Source: Candidatus Altimarinota bacterium
Lineage (GTDB): Bacteria > Patescibacteriota > Gracilibacteria > BD1-5 > JAGOOR01
Length of the DNA: 64,000 nt
Assembly: GCA_023268615.1 (NCBI GenBank)
Contig: JALQUC010000011.1
Coordinates: forward strand, 3,040-67,039
Direction of reading: 5' to 3'
The notes beneath the pieces were generated by a model. That model was not told the origin of the DNA. It searched no databases and saw only the letters and a list, made by a program, of their open reading frames with translations. A program made the translations under genes and the position numbers. Below, piece after piece: positions 13,399-43,346 of this stretch. How positions within the stretch are numbered: the stretch's first letter is position 1; every line of letters begins with the position of its first letter.

Positions 13399-16377
13399 CT
13401 ATGTTTTTGTTTGAGGAGTATCTGCTGCCGGTGTTTCTGCTGTGTCTTCTGGTACCGGCATTTCTGCAGCATCTTCTGGCACACTCTCTCCGGTGATACC
13501 GAGTCGTGCCTCGATTTCCATATCGACATATTGTTTCTTGCGGCCGTACATCTTTCGAGAATATTCCTTGATGATTTGAGCTGCACGATCATTGCGATAA
13601 TAGTTGTCCCAGATGGTCTTGATATCAAATGGTCTGGTAGAAGCATTATCGATATTGAGCTTACAATAAGTGGTATAGTTTGCGATACCGATGATGTCCT
13701 GCTGAGAGAGAGTAGGGGCGTATTCTTTTTCGAGATACTCTGCATCCTCAGCACCGACCTTAAATGACATAATGGTTCCCACATTTCCGAAGACGGCTTC
13801 TTTGATACTCGGCTTACCTGTACTCTTGTATTTCTCACCTGATCCTCCTATCTGAGCGATGAACTGGTGAGCCATGATGAGCGCGAGTCTGTATTTACGA
13901 GCTTCTGAGAGTATTTCTCAGAATGTATCTGTCGCAAAATTCTGAAACTCATCGACATAGAAGAAGAAATCTTTTCTGTCCTTTTCTGCGACATCAGCAC
14001 GACTCATGGCTGCGAGATTGACCTTTGAGACAAAGACGAGACCGAGAAGCTGAGCATTGAGGTCACCGATTTTACCCTTTGAGAGATTGACGAGGAGACA
14101 GCGCTGATTGTCCATGATCTCTCGGATATTAAATGCTGATTTTGGCTGACCGATGATATTACGAATCGTTGTATTGGTGATAAATGGTCCAAATTTCGCA
14201 GAAAAGTACGGGATCATCTCCTGTTTTTCTCGGTCACCAGTTTGTGCGTATTCATGATCCCAGAATGCTTTGACGACAGGATTTTTTATCTTACTCATCT
14301 TGTATTTGAGGAATGATTCATCGACGAATAATCGTGGCACATCTATGAGCGTCCCGCCGTCTTCTTCATCATCCATGAGTGTGAGAGCACCATTACGGAA
14401 ATAGTGCTGGATACGAGGTCCAAATATCTCATCACCAAATATCTTGATAAATATAGAAGTAGCATCGAGAGAGGCACGGTCTTTTTCGAGTGCACGCAGG
14501 TCTGGGTCAGTCGAGATGACCTCGAGCATATTGAGACCCATAGGCCGCTCGTAATCCGAAGGATCAAATATCACCATATCACGAGCGCGGTCTTTTGGGG
14601 TAAAAGCGAGGATATCCTCGATGAGGTCACCGTGTGGATCGATGACTCCGAGACCTTCACCATTCCAGAGATCTTGGCGGGCGAGATATCCGATGAGGAC
14701 GGATTTACCTCCTCATGATTTACCGATGATATAGTGATGACGGCCGCGATCTTTTTTCTCGAAATAGATAGGCTGTTTCTTGTTTCTGTATTCATTCCAC
14801 CCGAGCAGTACTGATTCCTTGTATACAGGGAATCCTCCGAGCATTCTCTCCTTTTCTTCTGATTTTGGGAGCTTGCCTTCATCAATTGGCTGACCTCGTT
14901 TGTCACCGTCTGTTTGGAGTGGTATTTCTACACCCTCAGCTGTGAGGAACCCGTCATTGGCTCCGCGTGCGATGTTGCCGTATTTGTCAGTCTTGAGACG
15001 AGTACCATCTTCTGTGACGATGTATTCGCCATCACGGACATAGTCGACCATCAGGAGCTTTTCTTTTGGAGTTTTGAGATTGGATGGAGGAGCTACCTTC
15101 TTGTACCCGAGCCAGTAGATGATAGGGGATTTGTTATAGTTTACATCAGGGAAGTGGTAGAGTGTGGTGAGTTCATCGACACTATAGGGGCTCATACGAG
15201 TGACAAATCCTGCGAGCTTGAATTGAAATGCCATCTTGTGTAGGAATCGTATCAATGGTCGAAACATACCCTCGAGAATCTGATTATTATCGAGATTGTT
15301 GCAGTATTCGTTCGTATAGACACTTGTGGACGCGAGCATACTGTCGATACCATTTTGAGCGGCTTCGTCTGAATCGCTGCCTACGAGCACGAGCATACTG
15401 GCTTCAAATGCATTTTGAGCCGCATTCTCACCCACCATCTTTTGTGCTTCTTGTTCTGCTTGATTAAATATCTTGTAAGAGTCACCACCAGATGCACCCA
15501 TAGGATTCTCATCTGGTTTGTTTTGGACGAAATTGGTGACTATCCATCCGAGAGGAGCGAGGAGTTTGCCCACGAGTCACCACGAGAGAAGCCATGAGCC
15601 ACCACGATTGTATTTGCCTTTACTGTATTCTGAGGCGACTTTTTTTGCCTTCTTATTATATCTATGGGAGAGTGGTTTTGCGACGACCTGGAATACCGCG
15701 ACATCAGTCTGTTTGAGCCCACCAAATACATTGGTAAAAGTCGTGAGCGGATCTTCTTCGAAATATTTGTAGGTCTTGATAGGGAAGTATCGGTCCTGAT
15801 CCTTGCGAAAGCTCGTCGTACGAACGACAGAATGCTGGTCCTGAAATGTGATATAGTCTTTCTTGTCTCGGATGACGACCTCTGCGTCGGGATAGATCGA
15901 GGTAATAGTCTGATTGATAGTCGGGAACAGATCACGATAGGTGACGATAAAGAAAAATACTTGCCCTTCTTTATAGATAATCTCGTAGGAGAACTTGATA
16001 TGATTGAATATCGCATTCAGAACAGTGTATTTGAGTGAAGTGCTCGGTACTTTCCAGATAGAATTATGCACGAGACTCATGATGCCGGCCTTTTCCTTGA
16101 AGTCTTTCTTCGTCTCATGTTCTTTATCCAGTTTTGAATCAGAACGAGGGACAGATACCTGGATATACACGAGGTATCGTGCGAGCCAGAGCTCGAGGAG
16201 GAGTCGTACTATCCAGCGAATGACGAAAAATGCGACAATCGCACCGATGATGAGGAGAAGTATCTCCATGCCAGACATACCAGAAGATGCAGTATTGACC
16301 ACTTCTTGAACCGGTGTCATATTTGGGAGTACTTCTGTTGGTTTTTGTATGAAAATGCTTTGTGCCATATCTTGCAT
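13399..16377 (-). CDS. type IV secretion coupling-protein-like ATPase (VirD4/TraG/TraD, HerA-FtsK superfamily)
   Basis: 992 aa from four track ORFs in one frame, joined at TGA 15577, 14713 and 13918. N-terminal TM segment, Walker A IIGKS-G(TGA)-GGKS, Walker B FFYVDEFQNF, and SEARKYRLALIMAHQFIAQI. Confidence 0.7.
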
Positions 16378-16569
16378 ATATAATACGCGAGAACACCCTT
16401 GTCTGCAAATACTTTTTGGCATAAAACTCACACAATCTTTACACAAAACTGAAAAAATCAGTATAATAGACCTGTTTAGTGTTAATCGTTGTTCGTAAAT
16501 CGTTGAGTTTCAAAAGTCTCAACAATAAACTATTAACCATTAACTATAAACAAATTTGTTCCTTTACAT

Positions 16570-17002
16570 GGGGGTGACCGGCTTCTATCGGCGCCTTGTG
16601 GAATCATCTTTGCTTTTCGCACGATGTCTGTATCGGGCGTTATCACCAAAACAGACAAAATCTAAGTGCTAAAACACTTTCTTTCGGAGGTCTCGCTCGC
16701 GTAAAAGCGGCATTCTCTCCAGCTGTCTACGCCTAGTGCGATTCAGTAGTCACTTTCCTTCGGGACGACAGAGCAATTGCTCGTGATAACCTCAAACACG
16801 GTGCAGAGGAGGCTCGTTTGTTGTAATAAATTCTCCTTTCGTTATTTTAGGGCTGATAGGCCGCTATCATATCGTATCTTGTCTATCACCGAAGTGTCTT
16901 TTTCGTTTGGCTTACCCGACACTTCGTATTAAGCCAAACTATAAAAGTAGACGGGATGGTACACTCGCTGAGACATGGGTTCGATTCCCATCACCTCCAC
17001 CA
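16570..17002 (+). ncRNA. ssrA: tmRNA (SsrA)
   Basis: 5' GGGGGTGACCGG pairs with 3' ..CACCTCC-A-CCA, giving the G3:U70 wobble. tRNA-like T-arm GGGTTCGATTCCC. Candidate tag ORF 16668-16736 (AKTLSFGGLARVKAAFSPAVYA, TAG stop). Confidence 0.9.
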
Positions 17003-17029: not shown

Positions 17030-18334
17030 ATGCGTATAACCAGAGCTTCATTTATTTCTGCCCCTTTTACTGTTTGCCCAAAATGTCATCAAGAAACTTT
17101 CGGACTTTTGGTAATTTGAAATAGTGATAATGCTTACACTAAAGAATGTACTAATTGCTGGCACAAAGAAAATTTCCCACTACCAAAAATCAAAAAACAT
17201 ATCGTATATTTGGATCAATTTGTTTTTGATGGAATGGTAAAATCTCTCGATAAAAATAATCCTAAAAATGAGAAAGTACTGAGAGAAAATCCCTACTGGC
17301 TTGAGCTATTTAAGAAACTAGATATTGCCCATAAAGCTCAGTTGATAGTTTGCCCTGATAGTTTTTTTCACCAGGAAGAGTCTTCATATTCTAACTATTT
17401 TCCATCCTTAAAAACAATATATGAGCACTTTTCAGACGGTATCACCTTCTATCAACATGAGGCCATATGTCAGCAACAAATTTTTGAACATTTTAAGAAC
17501 TATCTTGAAGGCAAGTCCGAGATAGAACCTTCAACAGAGCCAGAAGATATCGTCTCTTGAAATCAACTCCATCGATGGAACGCTCCACTCCGTATCTCAG
17601 TAGGTTATGATATGCCCGAAGATATTATAGCTCAAAGTAAGCAAGAAAAAGCCGCGGGTTACGATGATTTTATATCTATCTGTCAAAGATGGAAAAAAGA
17701 ACAGGGTCGGACTATAGATGAGTGGTACCGAGAAGAAGTTACAGGATATGCCAAGTCTGTATATCAGTGAATTTTGCAAAAGCAGAAGAGGCTGATTGAT
17801 ATTTGAAATGGTCTTGCTGAGCTGACACTGGATGATGCATTTCCAACATCTTGAGAGCAGCTAATCAGGGGTATGCTGTCAGTAGCTACAAATTACGGCA
17901 TGAATGATAGTCTAGAAATATATAATTGTATCAAGACCTATTTATTCTCAACACAGCTCGATTATATACCTGCTGTTCGGATTAAGGCGCTATTATTTGC
18001 AGGACTTGCAAATCTAGAAGCGCAAGGCAGAAAAAAACCTGTATCCGAGGGCGTTTTTACTGATGTAAATATGGTCTCTAGTCTTTTGCCCTATTGTGAT
18101 GCTATATTTGTAGATAAAGAAAATCAGAGTATTTTGGAACATGGCCATATTTCACATCGGTTAGGGGTAAAAACAAAAATATTCTCTTTGAGAAACAAGG
18201 AGGATTTTCTAACCTATTTGGATGAGCTGATTTCATCAATCACACCTGTACATAGAAAATTTTTAGAAAATTACTATGGTAACAAATGGGATACACCATA
18301 TCTGAGCATACTTAATTCAGATAAACGGAAATAA
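17030..18334 (+). CDS. hypothetical protein with N-terminal zinc ribbon
   Basis: 434 aa with 5 TGA, AT-rich. CPKCH-x24-CTNCWH ribbon, then HIVYLDQFVFDGM and C-terminal LLPYCDAIFVDKE segments. No family recognised. Confidence 0.65.
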
Positions 18335-18918: not shown

Positions 18919-20112
18919 ATGATTCCAAAGATTACAGAAATTATACCAGAAGAGAAGTATATTGAGACTTCTCTTCATGGTCTTGTGAAGCGTCTATCTC
19001 AGCCCGATCATGAGCCGACAGAACAAGAGGTAGCCAATCTTGTCATCAAGTATTTCTGGAGTTATTGTGATCCGAGTCAGAGGCCTGCATCTCTTTCAGA
19101 GATAACCTCGTTGATGCATATCTATGAATACTACTTTGCTCATCTCAGATTTATGGTAATGGGCGCAAAGTTTGATTTTTCTCAACTCCCAGAATTTATA
19201 TTTCCTATTTTTGCTTTTGCAAAAGACCACGGATATCCTGTTAGCATGCTCGGAGATGTCAGTTCGACGACAGCCTTGGTCCGATCTCTCATTATGCATA
19301 ATCTCGATGATAACCGAGGACAGAAAAGTTTTCATGGGCTGGATATATGATCTGGAACATGAATACTTGCTCTAGCTCAGTATATTCTTGCAAAGAGGAA
19401 ATGATTCAGGGATGTTCATATTGATTGATTAGAACAAAATGTACCTGTTGCTCGTCATTCTCGAAATGTTCTTCGTCATATTATTCAGGGAAATGTTTTT
19501 GATGTGCATGGGGTTGATGCCACACGGAGCCACTCTTATAAGAAAATATCTCATAAACCAGATTTTGTAAGTGTAGAAATGCTCCCACAACCTGGTAGTC
19601 ATTTGGTTTTCGAGGCACGAGATGAGTCTGGTAAAACCAAGCATCATGATCCATTTTTACCAACAGTTCGGACACTTGTAGAGAAATATTCACGATGAGT
19701 CCAATTCCATATTTTTCCTTTTTCCCTCCGTGCTCACATAACTTCTGAGAGCGGAGAATCATGATTTTGTAATCTGCCCATGCTATGAGGGAGAAGTGTA
19801 TTTGAATTATGTTCTGTTGATTTTCATGAGGCTATGAAGCTGTTTCCTCATATATCTATTTATGGAGCACAATTGACTCCTTCATCTGATATGGTAAATC
19901 TGGATGATGTAGGTGCTCATATGCACAGAACTCCTGATAATCCAGATGGTTGGATCAAATTTTCCTCTCTTTGGATTCATCGCTGGAAAAAAATGATACA
20001 GCATAATCCTAGATATAATAATGACCTCTCTATGTATCATGTAGTTCCCAAAGAAGAAAGAGAAAGAACTATTATGCCCATACTCAATTGGTCAGATACT
20101 GTCACTCCCTAG
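18919..20112 (+). CDS. class I SAM-dependent methyltransferase with unassigned N- and C-terminal regions
   Basis: 397 aa; track ORFs 18919, 19504 and 19834 share one frame. Motif I reads GLDI-G-SGT-G-ILAL with both flagged Gly encoded by TGA. Confidence 0.7.
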
Positions 20113-40952: not shown

Positions 40953-41288
40953 ATGAATTTTCTAATATCACTTCTGCTCTCTGCAGTGGCTGTATTTGCA
41001 GCTGGTTACATCGTCCCTGGTGTGCAGATTGACGGATTTGTCACCGCTCTCATCGTGGCTATCGTCCTCGGTCTCGTGAATGCGACTATCGGATTCTTCT
41101 TGAAGATGCTCACAGCACCTCTCAACTGGCTCACTCTCGGTCTCGTCTCACTCGTGATCAATGTCCTGATGGTACTCCTGGTTGATAATTTTATCACAGG
41201 ATTTAGTACCAATGGTTTCTGGGCTGCAGCAATATTTGCTCTTGTCCTATCTATCATACAGTCGTTTCTCTGAGTCATGAAAGACTAA
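40953..41288 (+). CDS. phage holin family 4 / DUF360-like membrane protein
   Basis: 111 aa, four hydrophobic helices. One TGA (41271), TAA 41286. Confidence 0.55.
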
Positions 41289-41903: not shown

Positions 41904-43169
41904 TTATAGACCATTTATAGCTAGATACAAATCACTTGCCATTCTTCTAAGAGGATTTCGTTCTTTTTCATAATTTTTGTAATTATCACGATTTTCTTGA
42001 GACCAATTTCTAATCGTTACCCACCCATTTTCTGTTTTAATTCTTACATATTTTTCTTGCTCAAGTCTTCATCTAATTTTTTGGAGGGTTTGAGCTCGTA
42101 TAGTTCATAAGTTGTACTCTCTGCATATATCTGATATTCCTTTGAGATAAAAGAGCAATTTTTCTGGTGTTAAATCCATTGTTCAAATATTATGCTTTAT
42201 AGGATTCCTCAATTGCTTCTTTTGAGACTTATCAAATAAATGCTCTATGTGACTAATAGACCAAGAGAGTATCATGTTGATATCATTCAGTAAGTAGTAT
42301 GCATTTTCTATATTTTTTGCTCCTTTTATTCCATATTTTTCGGTGTATGTTTGTAGTTTCTTAAAGTTATTATGACCTACAAAACAATATACCATCAGAA
42401 ATGATTTCCATCGTAGTTCTGATCAGAGAGCGTGACGCAAATTATCAATTTTTCTTTTGTAATTTTCTCGTTCCAACCGTATTTTTTTATCAATCACTCC
42501 TCGTGTTTTATCTCAGAAAAATTCTTTTGTTTTTACTCTTCTTTTTTCAACAATTGTTTTGAGTATTTCTTGAGTTTGAGATACAGAAATAGAGGAATTA
42601 CCAATGACTATTTTTTGTTCACTCTGACTTGCAACTCCACCAATAATACTCCTCAAATCGCCAACCAATTTTGGTAAGAGTACATTTGCAATAAGAATCA
42701 AAGATTGTTTGAGAATATCATCTTTTTGCCCATTCAAAAGGGCTTCTCTTGTTTTTTTATGTTTTATTTCCTGGCTTTCATAGTGTTCTAGTAGGTTTCT
42801 GAGTTCACTCAAATATTTAAAATGCTTTTTAAATTCTTCCCAACTGTTATAACAACAGAAAAAATGCCGTTTTAATCAGAGAAATAAAAACGCAAAGTCT
42901 TTTATAACATATTGATATTGACTTGTGAGAGGATCGAGCTCTTTATTTTTAAATCGAATTGTAAAAGGAATATGCCCTGTTTCATGTGAAAAGTTTTTAT
43001 CTTGTTCTTCTAGTAAACTGTAGAGTTTTTTACCTTGTTTGTTGTTTTTGATTCCTTCACGAAAACATTCATCAATTGCAGCACTTGTAAGATCTATGAA
43101 ATAGCGTAACTGATGACGAAAGTCTCGGTTTTCAAATAAGTTATGGAGAAATATATACCCTTTTTTCAT
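41904..43169 (-). CDS. hypothetical 421-aa protein with two RNxxxH (HEPN-type) motifs and a wHTH-like tail
   Basis: Track ORFs 42876..43169, 42513..42812 and 42183..42395 plus the 41904..42179 segment share one frame, separated only by TGA. Motifs LSELRNLLEH (aa 124-129) and QLRNPIKH (aa 321-326). About 27% GC by hand count of one 60-nt line. Confidence 0.55.
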
Positions 43170-43206
43170 AAGAGTATTGTATTTCTTTTGTGATTAATAA
43201 AAGAGA

Positions 43207-43306
43207 TTGAGGAACCCCTCAAAAATGGGTTACCTCAAACCCCCGAATATGAGGAGACAAGGAAACAGCTGCTTGAGGAACCCCTCAAAAATGGGTTACC
43301 TCAAAC
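43207..43306 (-). repeat. CRISPR-like mini-array: two identical 34-nt direct repeats around a unique 32-nt spacer
   Basis: TTGAGGAACCCCTCAAAAATGGGTTACCTCAAAC occurs at 43207-43240 and 43273-43306. The spacer is CCCCGAATATGAGGAGACAAGGAAACAGCTGC. The minus-strand repeat reads GTTTGAGGTAACCCATTTTTGAGGGGTTCCTCAA. Confidence 0.45.
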
Positions 43307-43310
43307 AGAT

Positions 43311-43346
43311 ATTTGAGATATACCCATTTTCAAGAGGATTCAAGAC
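43311..43346 (+). repeat. inverted, degenerate copy of the 34-nt repeat (anti-repeat-like)
   Basis: ATTTGAGATATACCCATTTTCAAGAGGATTCAAGAC aligns to the reverse complement of the repeat. About 25 of the first 26 positions can pair, counting G-U pairs and one bulge. It lies 4 nt from repeat 2. Confidence 0.45.

What the first reader, a model, noticed from the sequence alone, without database searches (positions are those of the whole stretch)
41904..43169. Compact 421-aa protein with two HEPN-type RNxxxH motifs next to the mini-array
Reading through 5 TGA codons fuses four track fragments into one 421-aa, K/E/L-rich (probably all-helical) protein. It carries LSELR-N-LLE-H (aa 124-129) and QLR-N-PIK-H (aa 321-326). 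Rx4-6H, often as RNxxxH, is the catalytic signature of HEPN RNases such as Cas13, Csm6/Csx1, the Abi_2 family and many toxins. Two motifs in one chain would allow an intramolecular HEPN dimer as in Cas13, at less than half the size of the smallest known Cas13. The last ~90 aa (ISDICREYNLGTIRAQTLQKIRGRLEQEKYVRIKTENGWVTI) look like a winged helix. It could instead be an abortive-infection or toxin-type HEPN protein unrelated to the array.
Basis: inference. Interest (0 to 1): 0.8.

Follow-up and report, generated by a model that had tools for sequence, protein, structure and literature searches.

The report
Known miniature Cas13an RNA-guided RNase locus

Summary
The ORF is real: 41904-43169, minus strand, 421 aa. 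It has six in-frame TGA codons, not five. TGA reads as Gly here (code 25). RNLLEH sits at aa 124-129 and RNPIKH at aa 321-326.

The protein is 93% identical to Cas13an9 (MBP7823504.1, Candidatus Gracilibacteria) from Yoon et al., Science 2024. The 36-nt repeat is identical to the Cas13an9 repeat used in that paper. A profile comparison against ten other published Cas13an gives 98.2% probability (E 5.8e-14) over 381 columns, with both HEPN motifs aligned.

Four strain-level loci share the order pnp, leader, array, cas13an, Cdd1-like gene. Their spacers differ. One contig has a cas13an gene 100% identical in nucleotides but carries one extra leader-proximal spacer.

The window's spacer matches three TGA-recoded phage contigs 30/30. 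Read from the gene's strand, the crRNA would pair with the phage coding strand.

The Cas13-like reading is supported and the unrelated-toxin alternative is rejected. The "smallest known Cas13" claim is outdated. The C-terminal winged helix and the HEPN fold could not be tested, because both AlphaFold2 models reached pLDDT of only about 36.

Novelty: already known. Interest is low.

The parts
41904..43169 (-). cas13an gene: 421 aa, six TGA=Gly codons, TAA stop. Strain variant of Cas13an9.
   Evidence: 93% identity to MBP7823504.1. hhalign probability 98.2%, E 5.8e-14, against ten other published Cas13an.
42783..42800 (-). HEPN1 catalytic motif R124-N-L-L-E-H129.
   Evidence: Read directly from the sequence. 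Aligned to the R127/H132 motif of Cas13an2, whose alanine mutants lose activity (PMC12165695, Fig. 3 legend).
42192..42209 (-). HEPN2 catalytic motif R321-N-P-I-K-H326.
   Evidence: Read directly from the sequence. R321, N322 and H326 are invariant in the alignment of ten Cas13an.
43271..43306 (-). CRISPR repeat 1 (leader-proximal): GTTTGAGGTAACCCATTTTTGAGGGGTTCCTCAAGC.
   Evidence: Identical to the Cas13an9 repeat oligo in Data S2 of PMC12165695. Folds as a hairpin at -17.2 kcal/mol, z = -3.9.
43241..43270 (-). Single 30-nt spacer: AGCTGTTTCCTTGTCTCCTCATATTCGGGG.
   Evidence: 30/30 matches in three IMG/VR contigs. Its complement lies on the coding strand of TGA-recoded phage ORFs. No second copy in the window.
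43205..43240 (-). CRISPR repeat 2 (gene-proximal). Variant ending ...CAATC, which loses the two outermost base pairs.
   Evidence: Folds at -14.4 kcal/mol.
43170..43204 (-). 35-nt trailer between the last repeat and the ATG (TCTTTTATTAATCACAAAAGAAATACAATACTCTT). Identical in all four strain loci.
   Evidence: Retained in the Cas13an9 gBlock of PMC12165695.
43307..43405 (-). Leader between the pnp stop and repeat 1. The proximal ~62 nt are nearly invariant among the four strains.
   Evidence: No consensus sigma-70 promoter was found here.

Best explanation
This is a type VI CRISPR-Cas13an locus, and a strain variant of the published Cas13an9 system of Candidatus Gracilibacteria. The minus strand is transcribed through the leader, the two-repeat array and the cas13an gene. 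The gene lies 35 nt downstream of the array and directly follows pnp. The 421-aa protein binds the 36-nt repeat hairpin. By analogy with Cas13an2, it trims the 30-nt spacer 23-24 nt upstream of the repeat using its single composite HEPN active site, formed by R124/H129 and R321/H326. This gives a crRNA with the spacer 5' and the repeat 3'. When that crRNA pairs with a complementary phage transcript, the same active site cleaves the target in cis and other RNAs in trans, which blocks the infection. Shown here: the ORF, the motifs, homology to Cas13an, repeat identity, conserved synteny, spacer turnover between strains, and phage matches in the sense orientation. Taken from published work on other orthologues: the crRNA architecture, HEPN-dependent processing, cis and trans RNase activity, and phage defence. 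Inferred: that this orthologue is active, and that it is expressed as one transcript with the array.
For: Identity to a named member: 93% identity over 421 aa to Cas13an9, MBP7823504.1. The repeat is identical to the Cas13an9 repeat oligo, and the Cas13an9 gBlock has the same repeat, 35-nt trailer and ATG layout.
Homology independent of Cas13an9: hhalign of {window protein, Cas13an9} against ten other published Cas13an gives probability 98.2%, E 5.8e-14, 381 aligned columns. RNLLEH aligns to the HEPN1 motif and RNPIKH to the HEPN2 motif. R124, R321, N322 and H326 are invariant in the family alignment.
Repeat structure: eight Cas13an repeats share one 13-pair hairpin, and 9 of those pairs show compensatory changes. 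The window's repeat fits it.
Array linkage: four loci share pnp, leader, array, cas13an, Cdd1-like gene, with the same repeat but different spacers. L004 has a cas13an gene with 0 nucleotide differences from the window and one extra leader-proximal spacer.
Phage targeting: the window spacer matches three IMG/VR contigs 30/30. Those contigs gain about threefold ORF coverage under code 25. The crRNA read from the gene's strand is complementary to the coding strand, inside a conserved ORF end encoding ...LSLPEYEETRKQL.... Spacer 1 of L005 matches 29/29 in L011, again on the sense strand, 2 kb upstream of a large terminase gene (E 2e-49).
Selection: window versus L005 shows 39 synonymous and 31 non-synonymous codon differences. 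Both R..H dyads are kept in all strains.
Against: No structural confirmation was obtained. Both AlphaFold2 runs gave mean pLDDT of about 36, so no fold search was worth running.
The text available to me does not say whether Cas13an9 itself was active in the E. coli GFP assay. The main text gives the smallest Cas13an as 429 aa, although Table S3 lists Cas13an9 at 421 aa.
The window's array has only one spacer. The repeat 3' of that spacer carries a G-to-T change that weakens the stem from -17.2 to -14.4 kcal/mol.
The sense-strand test rests on two spacers, so chance would give this result 25% of the time.
No promoter was identified.
No curated model recognises the protein: Pfam, PADLOC, NCBIfam and PDB sequences all gave nothing.
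Confidence: 0.92

Rival explanations
1. The locus is a decaying, non-functional relic. The effector or the array no longer works, and what remains is a remnant of a once longer array.
For: All four strain loci have very short arrays of one or two spacers. The gene-proximal repeat is mutated in the window and L004. In L009 two of three repeats are degenerate, one with a deletion in the loop. No cas1 or cas2 was seen among the window ORFs checked. The activity of Cas13an9 is not stated in the text I could read.
Against: The ORF is intact in every strain, and both catalytic dyads are kept. Synonymous codon changes outnumber non-synonymous ones, 39 to 31. Spacer content differs between strains even where the effector gene is identical in nucleotides. 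Two of the six distinct spacers (five searched) have perfect matches in phage contigs, which argues for recent use. The leader and trailer are conserved.
Confidence: 0.06
2. It is a stand-alone abortive-infection or toxin HEPN RNase of the AbiD/F type that merely sits next to a repeat.
For: Yoon et al. place the Cas13an HEPN domains in a clade with AbiD/F, so the ancestry is shared. The array is minimal.
Against: There is no Pfam Abi_2 or other HEPN family hit at E up to 1. No Rfam family reached its gathering score, and that search covers RF03085, the ncRNA predicted to accompany AbiD/F. The gene is always found with the same repeat. The repeat belongs to the Cas13an hairpin class. The spacers are phage-derived and vary between strains.
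Confidence: 0.02

Closest known systems
Cas13an9 (MBP7823504.1, contig JAGNIE010000069, Candidatus Gracilibacteria bacterium; Yoon et al., Science 2024, Table S3)
   Same: Both are 421 aa and 93% identical. The 36-nt repeat, the 35-nt trailer and the layout (array upstream of the gene, flanked by pnp and a Cdd1-like gene) are identical. Both use TGA=Gly recoding.
   Different: There are 31 amino-acid differences. They include aa 355, which is a TGA codon here, TGG (Trp) in Cas13an9 and CGA (Arg) in L009. Spacer content differs: one spacer here, two different ones there. The gene-proximal repeat carries one substitution here.
Cas13an2 and Cas13an8, the characterised Cas13an (490 and 474 aa)
   Same: Same family by profile comparison. 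Two Rx4H motifs at equivalent positions. A 36-nt hairpin repeat and 30-nt spacers. No other cas genes in the locus. Spacers match tailed dsDNA phages.
   Different: Only 17-24% identity to other Cas13an; 24% to Cas13an2, 20% to Cas13an8. This protein is 50-70 aa shorter. The array is upstream of the gene rather than 'usually immediately downstream' (Fig. S2 legend). The host uses genetic code 25. The repeat ends ...CAAGC rather than ...TGAC.
Cas13b family, including Cas13bt / Cas13X / Cas13Y (type VI-B, about 775-1200 aa)
   Same: 36-nt repeat, 30-nt spacer and a crRNA with the spacer 5' of the repeat, as stated for Cas13an and Cas13b in PMC12165695. A T-rich loop followed by GAGGGG in the repeat resembles Cas13b repeats; that resemblance is from my own memory and was not tested.
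   Different: About half the size or less, with no REC lobe. No detectable sequence similarity by Pfam, NCBIfam or PDB sequence searches. No csx27, csx28 or WYL accessory gene next to it.
AbiD/AbiF (Abi_2) HEPN abortive-infection RNases
   Same: Defence-associated HEPN RNases with the same rearranged helix order, proposed as the ancestors of the Cas13an HEPN domains.
   Different: Those proteins have a single HEPN domain and work as homodimers, with no CRISPR array. Here two HEPN motifs sit in one chain next to an array. There is no Abi_2 Pfam hit and no RF03085 RNA.

Membership tests
Cas13an (type VI CRISPR effector; Yoon et al. 2024) | One polypeptide of about 420-580 aa carrying two HEPN Rx4H motifs. 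| tested here: met
   421 aa, with RNLLEH at 124-129 and RNPIKH at 321-326 and no other Rx4H.
Cas13an (type VI CRISPR effector; Yoon et al. 2024) | Full-length sequence homology to published Cas13an members. | tested here: met
   93% identity to Cas13an9. hhalign against ten other Cas13an: probability 98.2%, E 5.8e-14, 381 columns.
Cas13an (type VI CRISPR effector; Yoon et al. 2024) | Adjacent CRISPR array with 36-nt hairpin repeats of the conserved Cas13an type and spacers of about 30 nt. | tested here: met
   Two 36-nt repeats and a 30-nt spacer. The repeat is identical to that of Cas13an9. It shares the family's 13-pair hairpin, in which 9 pairs covary.
Cas13an (type VI CRISPR effector; Yoon et al. 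2024) | No other cas genes (cas1, cas2, cas4) in the locus. | tested here: met
   The flanking genes are pnp, a Cdd1-like gene, a holin-family membrane protein, pyruvate kinase, photolyase and SecA. No Cas family was found among the other large window ORFs scanned or recognised. ORFs below 250 aa away from the locus were not all scanned.
Cas13an (type VI CRISPR effector; Yoon et al. 2024) | Spacers derived from phages, and a crRNA complementary to phage transcripts. | tested here: met
   The window spacer matches three IMG/VR contigs 30/30 on the sense strand. The L005 spacer matches 29/29 on the sense strand. That is only two spacers; the other three spacers searched had no exact match.
Cas13an (type VI CRISPR effector; Yoon et al. 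2024) | Intramolecular HEPN dimer with rearranged helix order and no REC lobe. | tested here: inconclusive
   AlphaFold2 on a single sequence and on a 7-row alignment gave mean pLDDT 35.7 and 36.3. No usable homologues were available for a deeper alignment.
Cas13an (type VI CRISPR effector; Yoon et al. 2024) | HEPN-dependent pre-crRNA processing and crRNA-guided cis and trans RNA cleavage. | not testable with these tools
   This needs biochemistry. It has been shown for Cas13an2 and Cas13an8 only.
Cas13b / Cas13bt (type VI-B) | Effector of about 775-1200 aa with terminal HEPN domains and a crRNA-binding REC/Lid region, detectable as Cas13b by sequence. | tested here: not met
   The protein is 421 aa. 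It has no hit in Pfam, NCBIfam or PDB sequences at permissive thresholds.
AbiD/AbiF (Pfam Abi_2) | Single Abi_2 HEPN domain, no CRISPR array, often with the RF03085 ncRNA. | tested here: not met
   No Abi_2 hit at E up to 1. No RF03085 in the window. Two HEPN motifs and an array are present.

The most novel reading that the evidence does not exclude
Two readings beyond the published description are not excluded.
(a) Spacers turn over at this array in a small-genome Gracilibacteria lineage with no adaptation genes in view. Two contigs with nucleotide-identical cas13an genes differ by one leader-proximal spacer. This lineage is not among the four Cas13an genomes for which the paper lists cas1/cas2 in trans. 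Acquisition could therefore be independent of Cas1-Cas2 or borrowed from elsewhere.
(b) The array sits 35 nt upstream of the start codon, and the last repeat hairpin is followed by a conserved U-rich trailer. The last crRNA and the effector mRNA may therefore be one transcript. The repeat could then act as an attenuator or as a binding site for Cas13an that regulates its own expression.
Probability: 0.15. Interest if true: 0.65.

Novelty: already known. Interest (0 to 1): 0.22.

Why it matters
The finding adds little that is new. Cas13an was described in 2024 as the smallest and probably ancestral Cas13, and this exact lineage (Cas13an9) is in that paper's tables and constructs.

The window does add some natural-history detail:
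- a second strain of the smallest listed Cas13 effector (421 aa);
- direct evidence of spacer gain or loss between otherwise identical loci;
- perfect spacer matches to phages that also use TGA recoding, in the orientation expected for RNA targeting.

It also shows that current curated libraries (Pfam, PADLOC 2.0, NCBIfam 20.0) and exhaustive phmmer do not recognise this protein. Such loci will keep being annotated as hypothetical proteins.

Tried and rejected
Searches that found nothing useful:
- Pfam, PADLOC and NCBIfam on the protein gave only noise such as MetJ.
- PDB sequences, with the single protein and with a Cas13an profile, gave nothing, so no solved Cas13an is detectable by sequence.
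- The 5.8-billion-protein word search found only the protein itself, first with the single sequence. With the Cas13an alignment it also found Cas13an12.
- Exhaustive phmmer against 1.84 billion representatives found only a 99-aa fragment of the same lineage.
- GTDB genome contigs, JGI metagenome contigs and IMG/VR had no relative of the protein and no copy of the repeat.
- Rfam had no CRISPR-DR or other family on the array.

Structure: AlphaFold2 was run twice and both models had mean pLDDT of about 36. I did not run a fold search because matches to such models are meaningless.

A two-sequence MAFFT alignment with Cas13an12 misaligned the HEPN2 motif and was dropped.

Spacers: the extra L004 spacer, L005 spacer 2 and L009 spacer 1 had no exact IMG/VR match.

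Code 4 (TGA=Trp) was considered because Cas13an9 has TGG where the window has TGA at aa 355. I rejected it for two reasons: conserved Gly aligns at the TGA sites of SecA and LepA, and L009 has CGA at that position, so the site is simply variable.

No sigma-70-type promoter was found in the leader.

Full report
**Observation.** The minus strand of 41904-43169 holds an ORF from ATG (43169) to TAA (41904-41906). With TGA read through, it encodes 421 aa. There are six in-frame TGA codons (aa 98, 219, 249, 329, 355, 367), not five.

The window as a whole is TGA-recoded. ORFs of at least 100 aa cover 1.1 window-equivalents under code 11 and 2.8 when TGA is sense. Which amino acid TGA encodes was tested on housekeeping genes. 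Both TGA sites in the SecA segment align with Gly in solved SecA structures (...llpGRRys......klgpGVaelggl...). One of two sites in LepA aligns with the conserved Gly of ...acEGall...; the other falls on a variable Cys/Ser position.

RNLLEH (aa 124-129; nt 42783-42800) and RNPIKH (aa 321-326; nt 42192-42209) are the only Rx4H motifs. Two RNxxxH motifs arise in 0.2% of shuffles of this protein, whereas two bare Rx4H motifs arise in 21%.

The mini-array is real. Its two 36-nt repeats (43271-43306 and 43205-43240) differ at one base and flank a 30-nt spacer (43241-43270). None of 100 shuffles of the window gave a match. The array is on the gene's strand, 35 nt upstream of the ATG.

**Identity.** Curated libraries do not recognise the protein. 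Pfam, PADLOC, NCBIfam and PDB sequences gave only noise. Exhaustive phmmer against 1.84 billion representative proteins found one 99-aa fragment of the same lineage.

The literature settles the question. Yoon et al. (Science 2024; PMC12165695) describe Cas13an. These are dual-HEPN effectors, given as 429-577 aa in the text, that sit next to CRISPR arrays with no other cas genes. Their crRNA has the spacer 5' of a 36-nt repeat. A single HEPN site both processes the pre-crRNA and cleaves target RNA, and the systems defend against phages.

Table S3 of that paper lists Cas13an9: JAGNIE010000069, MBP7823504.1, 421 aa. The protein collection names it 'hypothetical protein [Candidatus Gracilibacteria bacterium]'. 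The window protein is 93% identical to it over the full length. The Cas13an9 repeat oligo in Data S2, GTTTGAGGTAACCCATTTTTGAGGGGTTCCTCAAGC, is identical to the window's repeat 1. The Cas13an9 gBlock has the same repeat, 35-nt trailer and ATG layout, with TGA recoded to GGA.

I also tested family membership without relying on Cas13an9's label. I compared a profile of {window protein, Cas13an9} with an alignment of ten other published Cas13an. hhalign gave probability 98.2%, E 5.8e-14, over 381 columns (aa 8-406). Both RNxxxH motifs aligned to the family's HEPN1 and HEPN2 motifs. In a ten-sequence alignment R124, R321, N322 and H326 are invariant. Some members have K or G instead of the HEPN1 His; this protein has His, like Cas13an2, whose R127A/H132A and R363A/H368A mutants are inactive. 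Eight Cas13an repeats share one 13-pair hairpin, with compensatory changes in 9 pairs, and the window's repeat fits it. On its own the repeat folds at -17.2 kcal/mol, z = -3.9.

**Linkage of protein and array.** Exact-protein look-ups recovered three further strain-level loci:
- L004, from ENA assembly ERZ27267552;
- L005, which is JAGNIE010000069, the published Cas13an9 contig;
- L009 and L010, from a 297-kb contig of ERZ15185638 and a Logan contig.

All have the order pnp, leader, array, cas13an, Cdd1-like gene. All carry the same repeat in the same orientation. The proximal ~62 nt of the leader are nearly invariant and the 35-nt trailer is identical, but the spacers differ.

The cas13an gene of L004 has no nucleotide differences from the window's. 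Yet its array has one additional spacer at the leader-proximal end, three repeats against two. This is a clean case of recent spacer gain or loss. L005 has two other spacers (29 and 31 nt). L009 has two others, plus two degenerate repeats.

Between the window and L005 there are 39 synonymous and 31 non-synonymous codon differences. Both R..H dyads are kept in every strain; in L009 HEPN1 reads RTILEH.

**Targets.** The window's spacer has 30/30 matches in three IMG/VR contigs of 29-37 kb. These contigs gain about threefold ORF coverage when TGA is sense, as expected for phages of a code-25 host.

In all three contigs the complement of the spacer, read from the cas13an strand, lies on the strand of the neighbouring genes. 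In L001 and L002 it falls within the conserved 3' end of a 155-156-aa ORF, encoding ...LSLPEYEETRKQL.... A crRNA transcribed with the gene would therefore pair with the phage mRNA.

Spacer 1 of L005 matches L011 29/29, as the paper's Table S5 also reports. It too is on the sense strand. It spans a gene junction 2 kb upstream of a large terminase gene that scores E 2e-49 when translated with code 25. Two out of two is the expected direction, but statistically weak. Three other spacers had no exact match. The spacer has no second copy in the window, so there is no self-target within these 64 kb.

**Context.** No cas1 or cas2 is visible. The neighbours are PNPase, a Cdd1-like HhH protein, a holin-family membrane protein, pyruvate kinase, photolyase and SecA. 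The other large ORFs I scanned or recognised are housekeeping genes, secretion-related genes or unknowns, with no Cas family among them. The four genomes for which the paper reports cas1/cas2 in trans correspond to Cas13an1, 7, 8 and 10, not this lineage (Fig. S6 legend).

**Mechanism.** I take the published Cas13an mechanism as the working explanation. The pre-crRNA is transcribed from the minus strand. No sigma-70 consensus promoter was found in the leader, so read-through from pnp is possible; that is inference. The protein binds the repeat hairpin. The composite HEPN site trims the spacer and, on pairing with phage RNA, cleaves RNA in cis and in trans.

Shown here are the sequence-level features. 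The enzymology is borrowed from Cas13an2 and Cas13an8. Whether Cas13an9 itself was active in the GFP assay cannot be read from the held text. The construct exists in Data S2, but the main text aa the smallest Cas13an even though Table S3 lists 421 aa.

**What could not be settled.** Both AlphaFold2 runs are unusable: mean pLDDT 35.7 for the single sequence and 36.3 for a 7-row alignment. Only close relatives and Cas13an12 were available as permitted alignment rows.

The low-confidence model shows strand, helix, helix and a beta-hairpin over aa 329-387, with pLDDT about 50-55. Cas13an HEPN domains are reported to have helix order 2-3-4-1. The helices just after RNPIKH therefore probably complete HEPN2 rather than form a separate DNA-binding domain. 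That is inference.

**Verdict.** The system is already known: Cas13an, and specifically the Cas13an9 lineage. Interest is low. The residual points worth noting are the spacer difference between identical effector genes, the array-upstream layout with a conserved U-rich trailer, and the absence of visible adaptation genes.

Noticed in passing
window 43207-43222 plus tail to about 43197 (minus strand): The gene-proximal repeat hairpin is followed by the conserved trailer TCTCTTTTATT, and the scan flags this as intrinsic-terminator-like. Only the last repeat has this U-rich tail, and the trailer is identical in all four strain loci. It could define the crRNA 3' end or attenuate read-through into cas13an.
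   Followed up: partly
window 43322-43337 (leader) versus 43215-43230 and 43281-43296 (repeats): The conserved leader contains a 16-nt stretch that is 81% complementary to the repeat core (CCTCTTGAAAATGGGT against ACCCATTTTTGAGGGG). Many such pairs occur by chance in this region, so its significance is unclear (pairs I15 and I16).
   Followed up: no
L004 9835-9863 and L005 2279-2307: The leader-proximal spacers of two different strains share 12 of their first 13 nt (TCATAATAGTATA against TCATAGTAGTATA) and then diverge with indels. They look like independent acquisitions from the same locus of diverged phages, sharing one boundary.
   Followed up: partly
window aa 355 of the ORF (nt 42105-42107); L005; L009: The same codon is TGA (Gly) in the window, TGG (Trp) in Cas13an9 and CGA (Arg) in L009. 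It is a hypervariable site that at first looked like evidence for TGA=Trp.
   Followed up: yes
PMC12165695, main text versus Table S3: The paper's text gives the Cas13an size range as 429-577 aa and the smallest as 429 aa, but its Table S3 lists Cas13an9 at 421 aa. The held text does not say whether Cas13an9 was active.
   Followed up: partly
window 16570-17002 (+): A tmRNA gene with tag peptide AKTLSFGGLARVKAAFSPAVYA was found by both ARAGORN and Rfam.
   Followed up: no
window 13399-16422 (-): A 1007-aa ORF has weak matches to type IV secretion coupling protein families (TrwB/TraG-D, HerA-like ATPase). A T4SS-pilin-like gene and a T2SSE ATPase lie elsewhere in the syntenic region.
   Followed up: no
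window 17030-18334 (+) and 18919-20112 (+): Two ORFs of 434 and 397 aa have no Pfam hit, and the first has no PADLOC hit either. The first begins with CxxC...CxxC, which looks like a zinc ribbon.
   Followed up: no
window 40953-41288 (+): A 111-aa membrane protein of the Phage_holin_4_2 family (E 4e-30) lies about 600 nt beyond the 3' end of cas13an, past the Cdd1-like gene.
   Followed up: no
L001, L002, L003, L011 (IMG/VR contigs): The phages matched by the spacers also use TGA as a sense codon. ORF coverage rises about threefold under code 25, and a terminase gene with 7 TGA codons scores E 2e-49 when TGA is read as Gly.
   Followed up: partly
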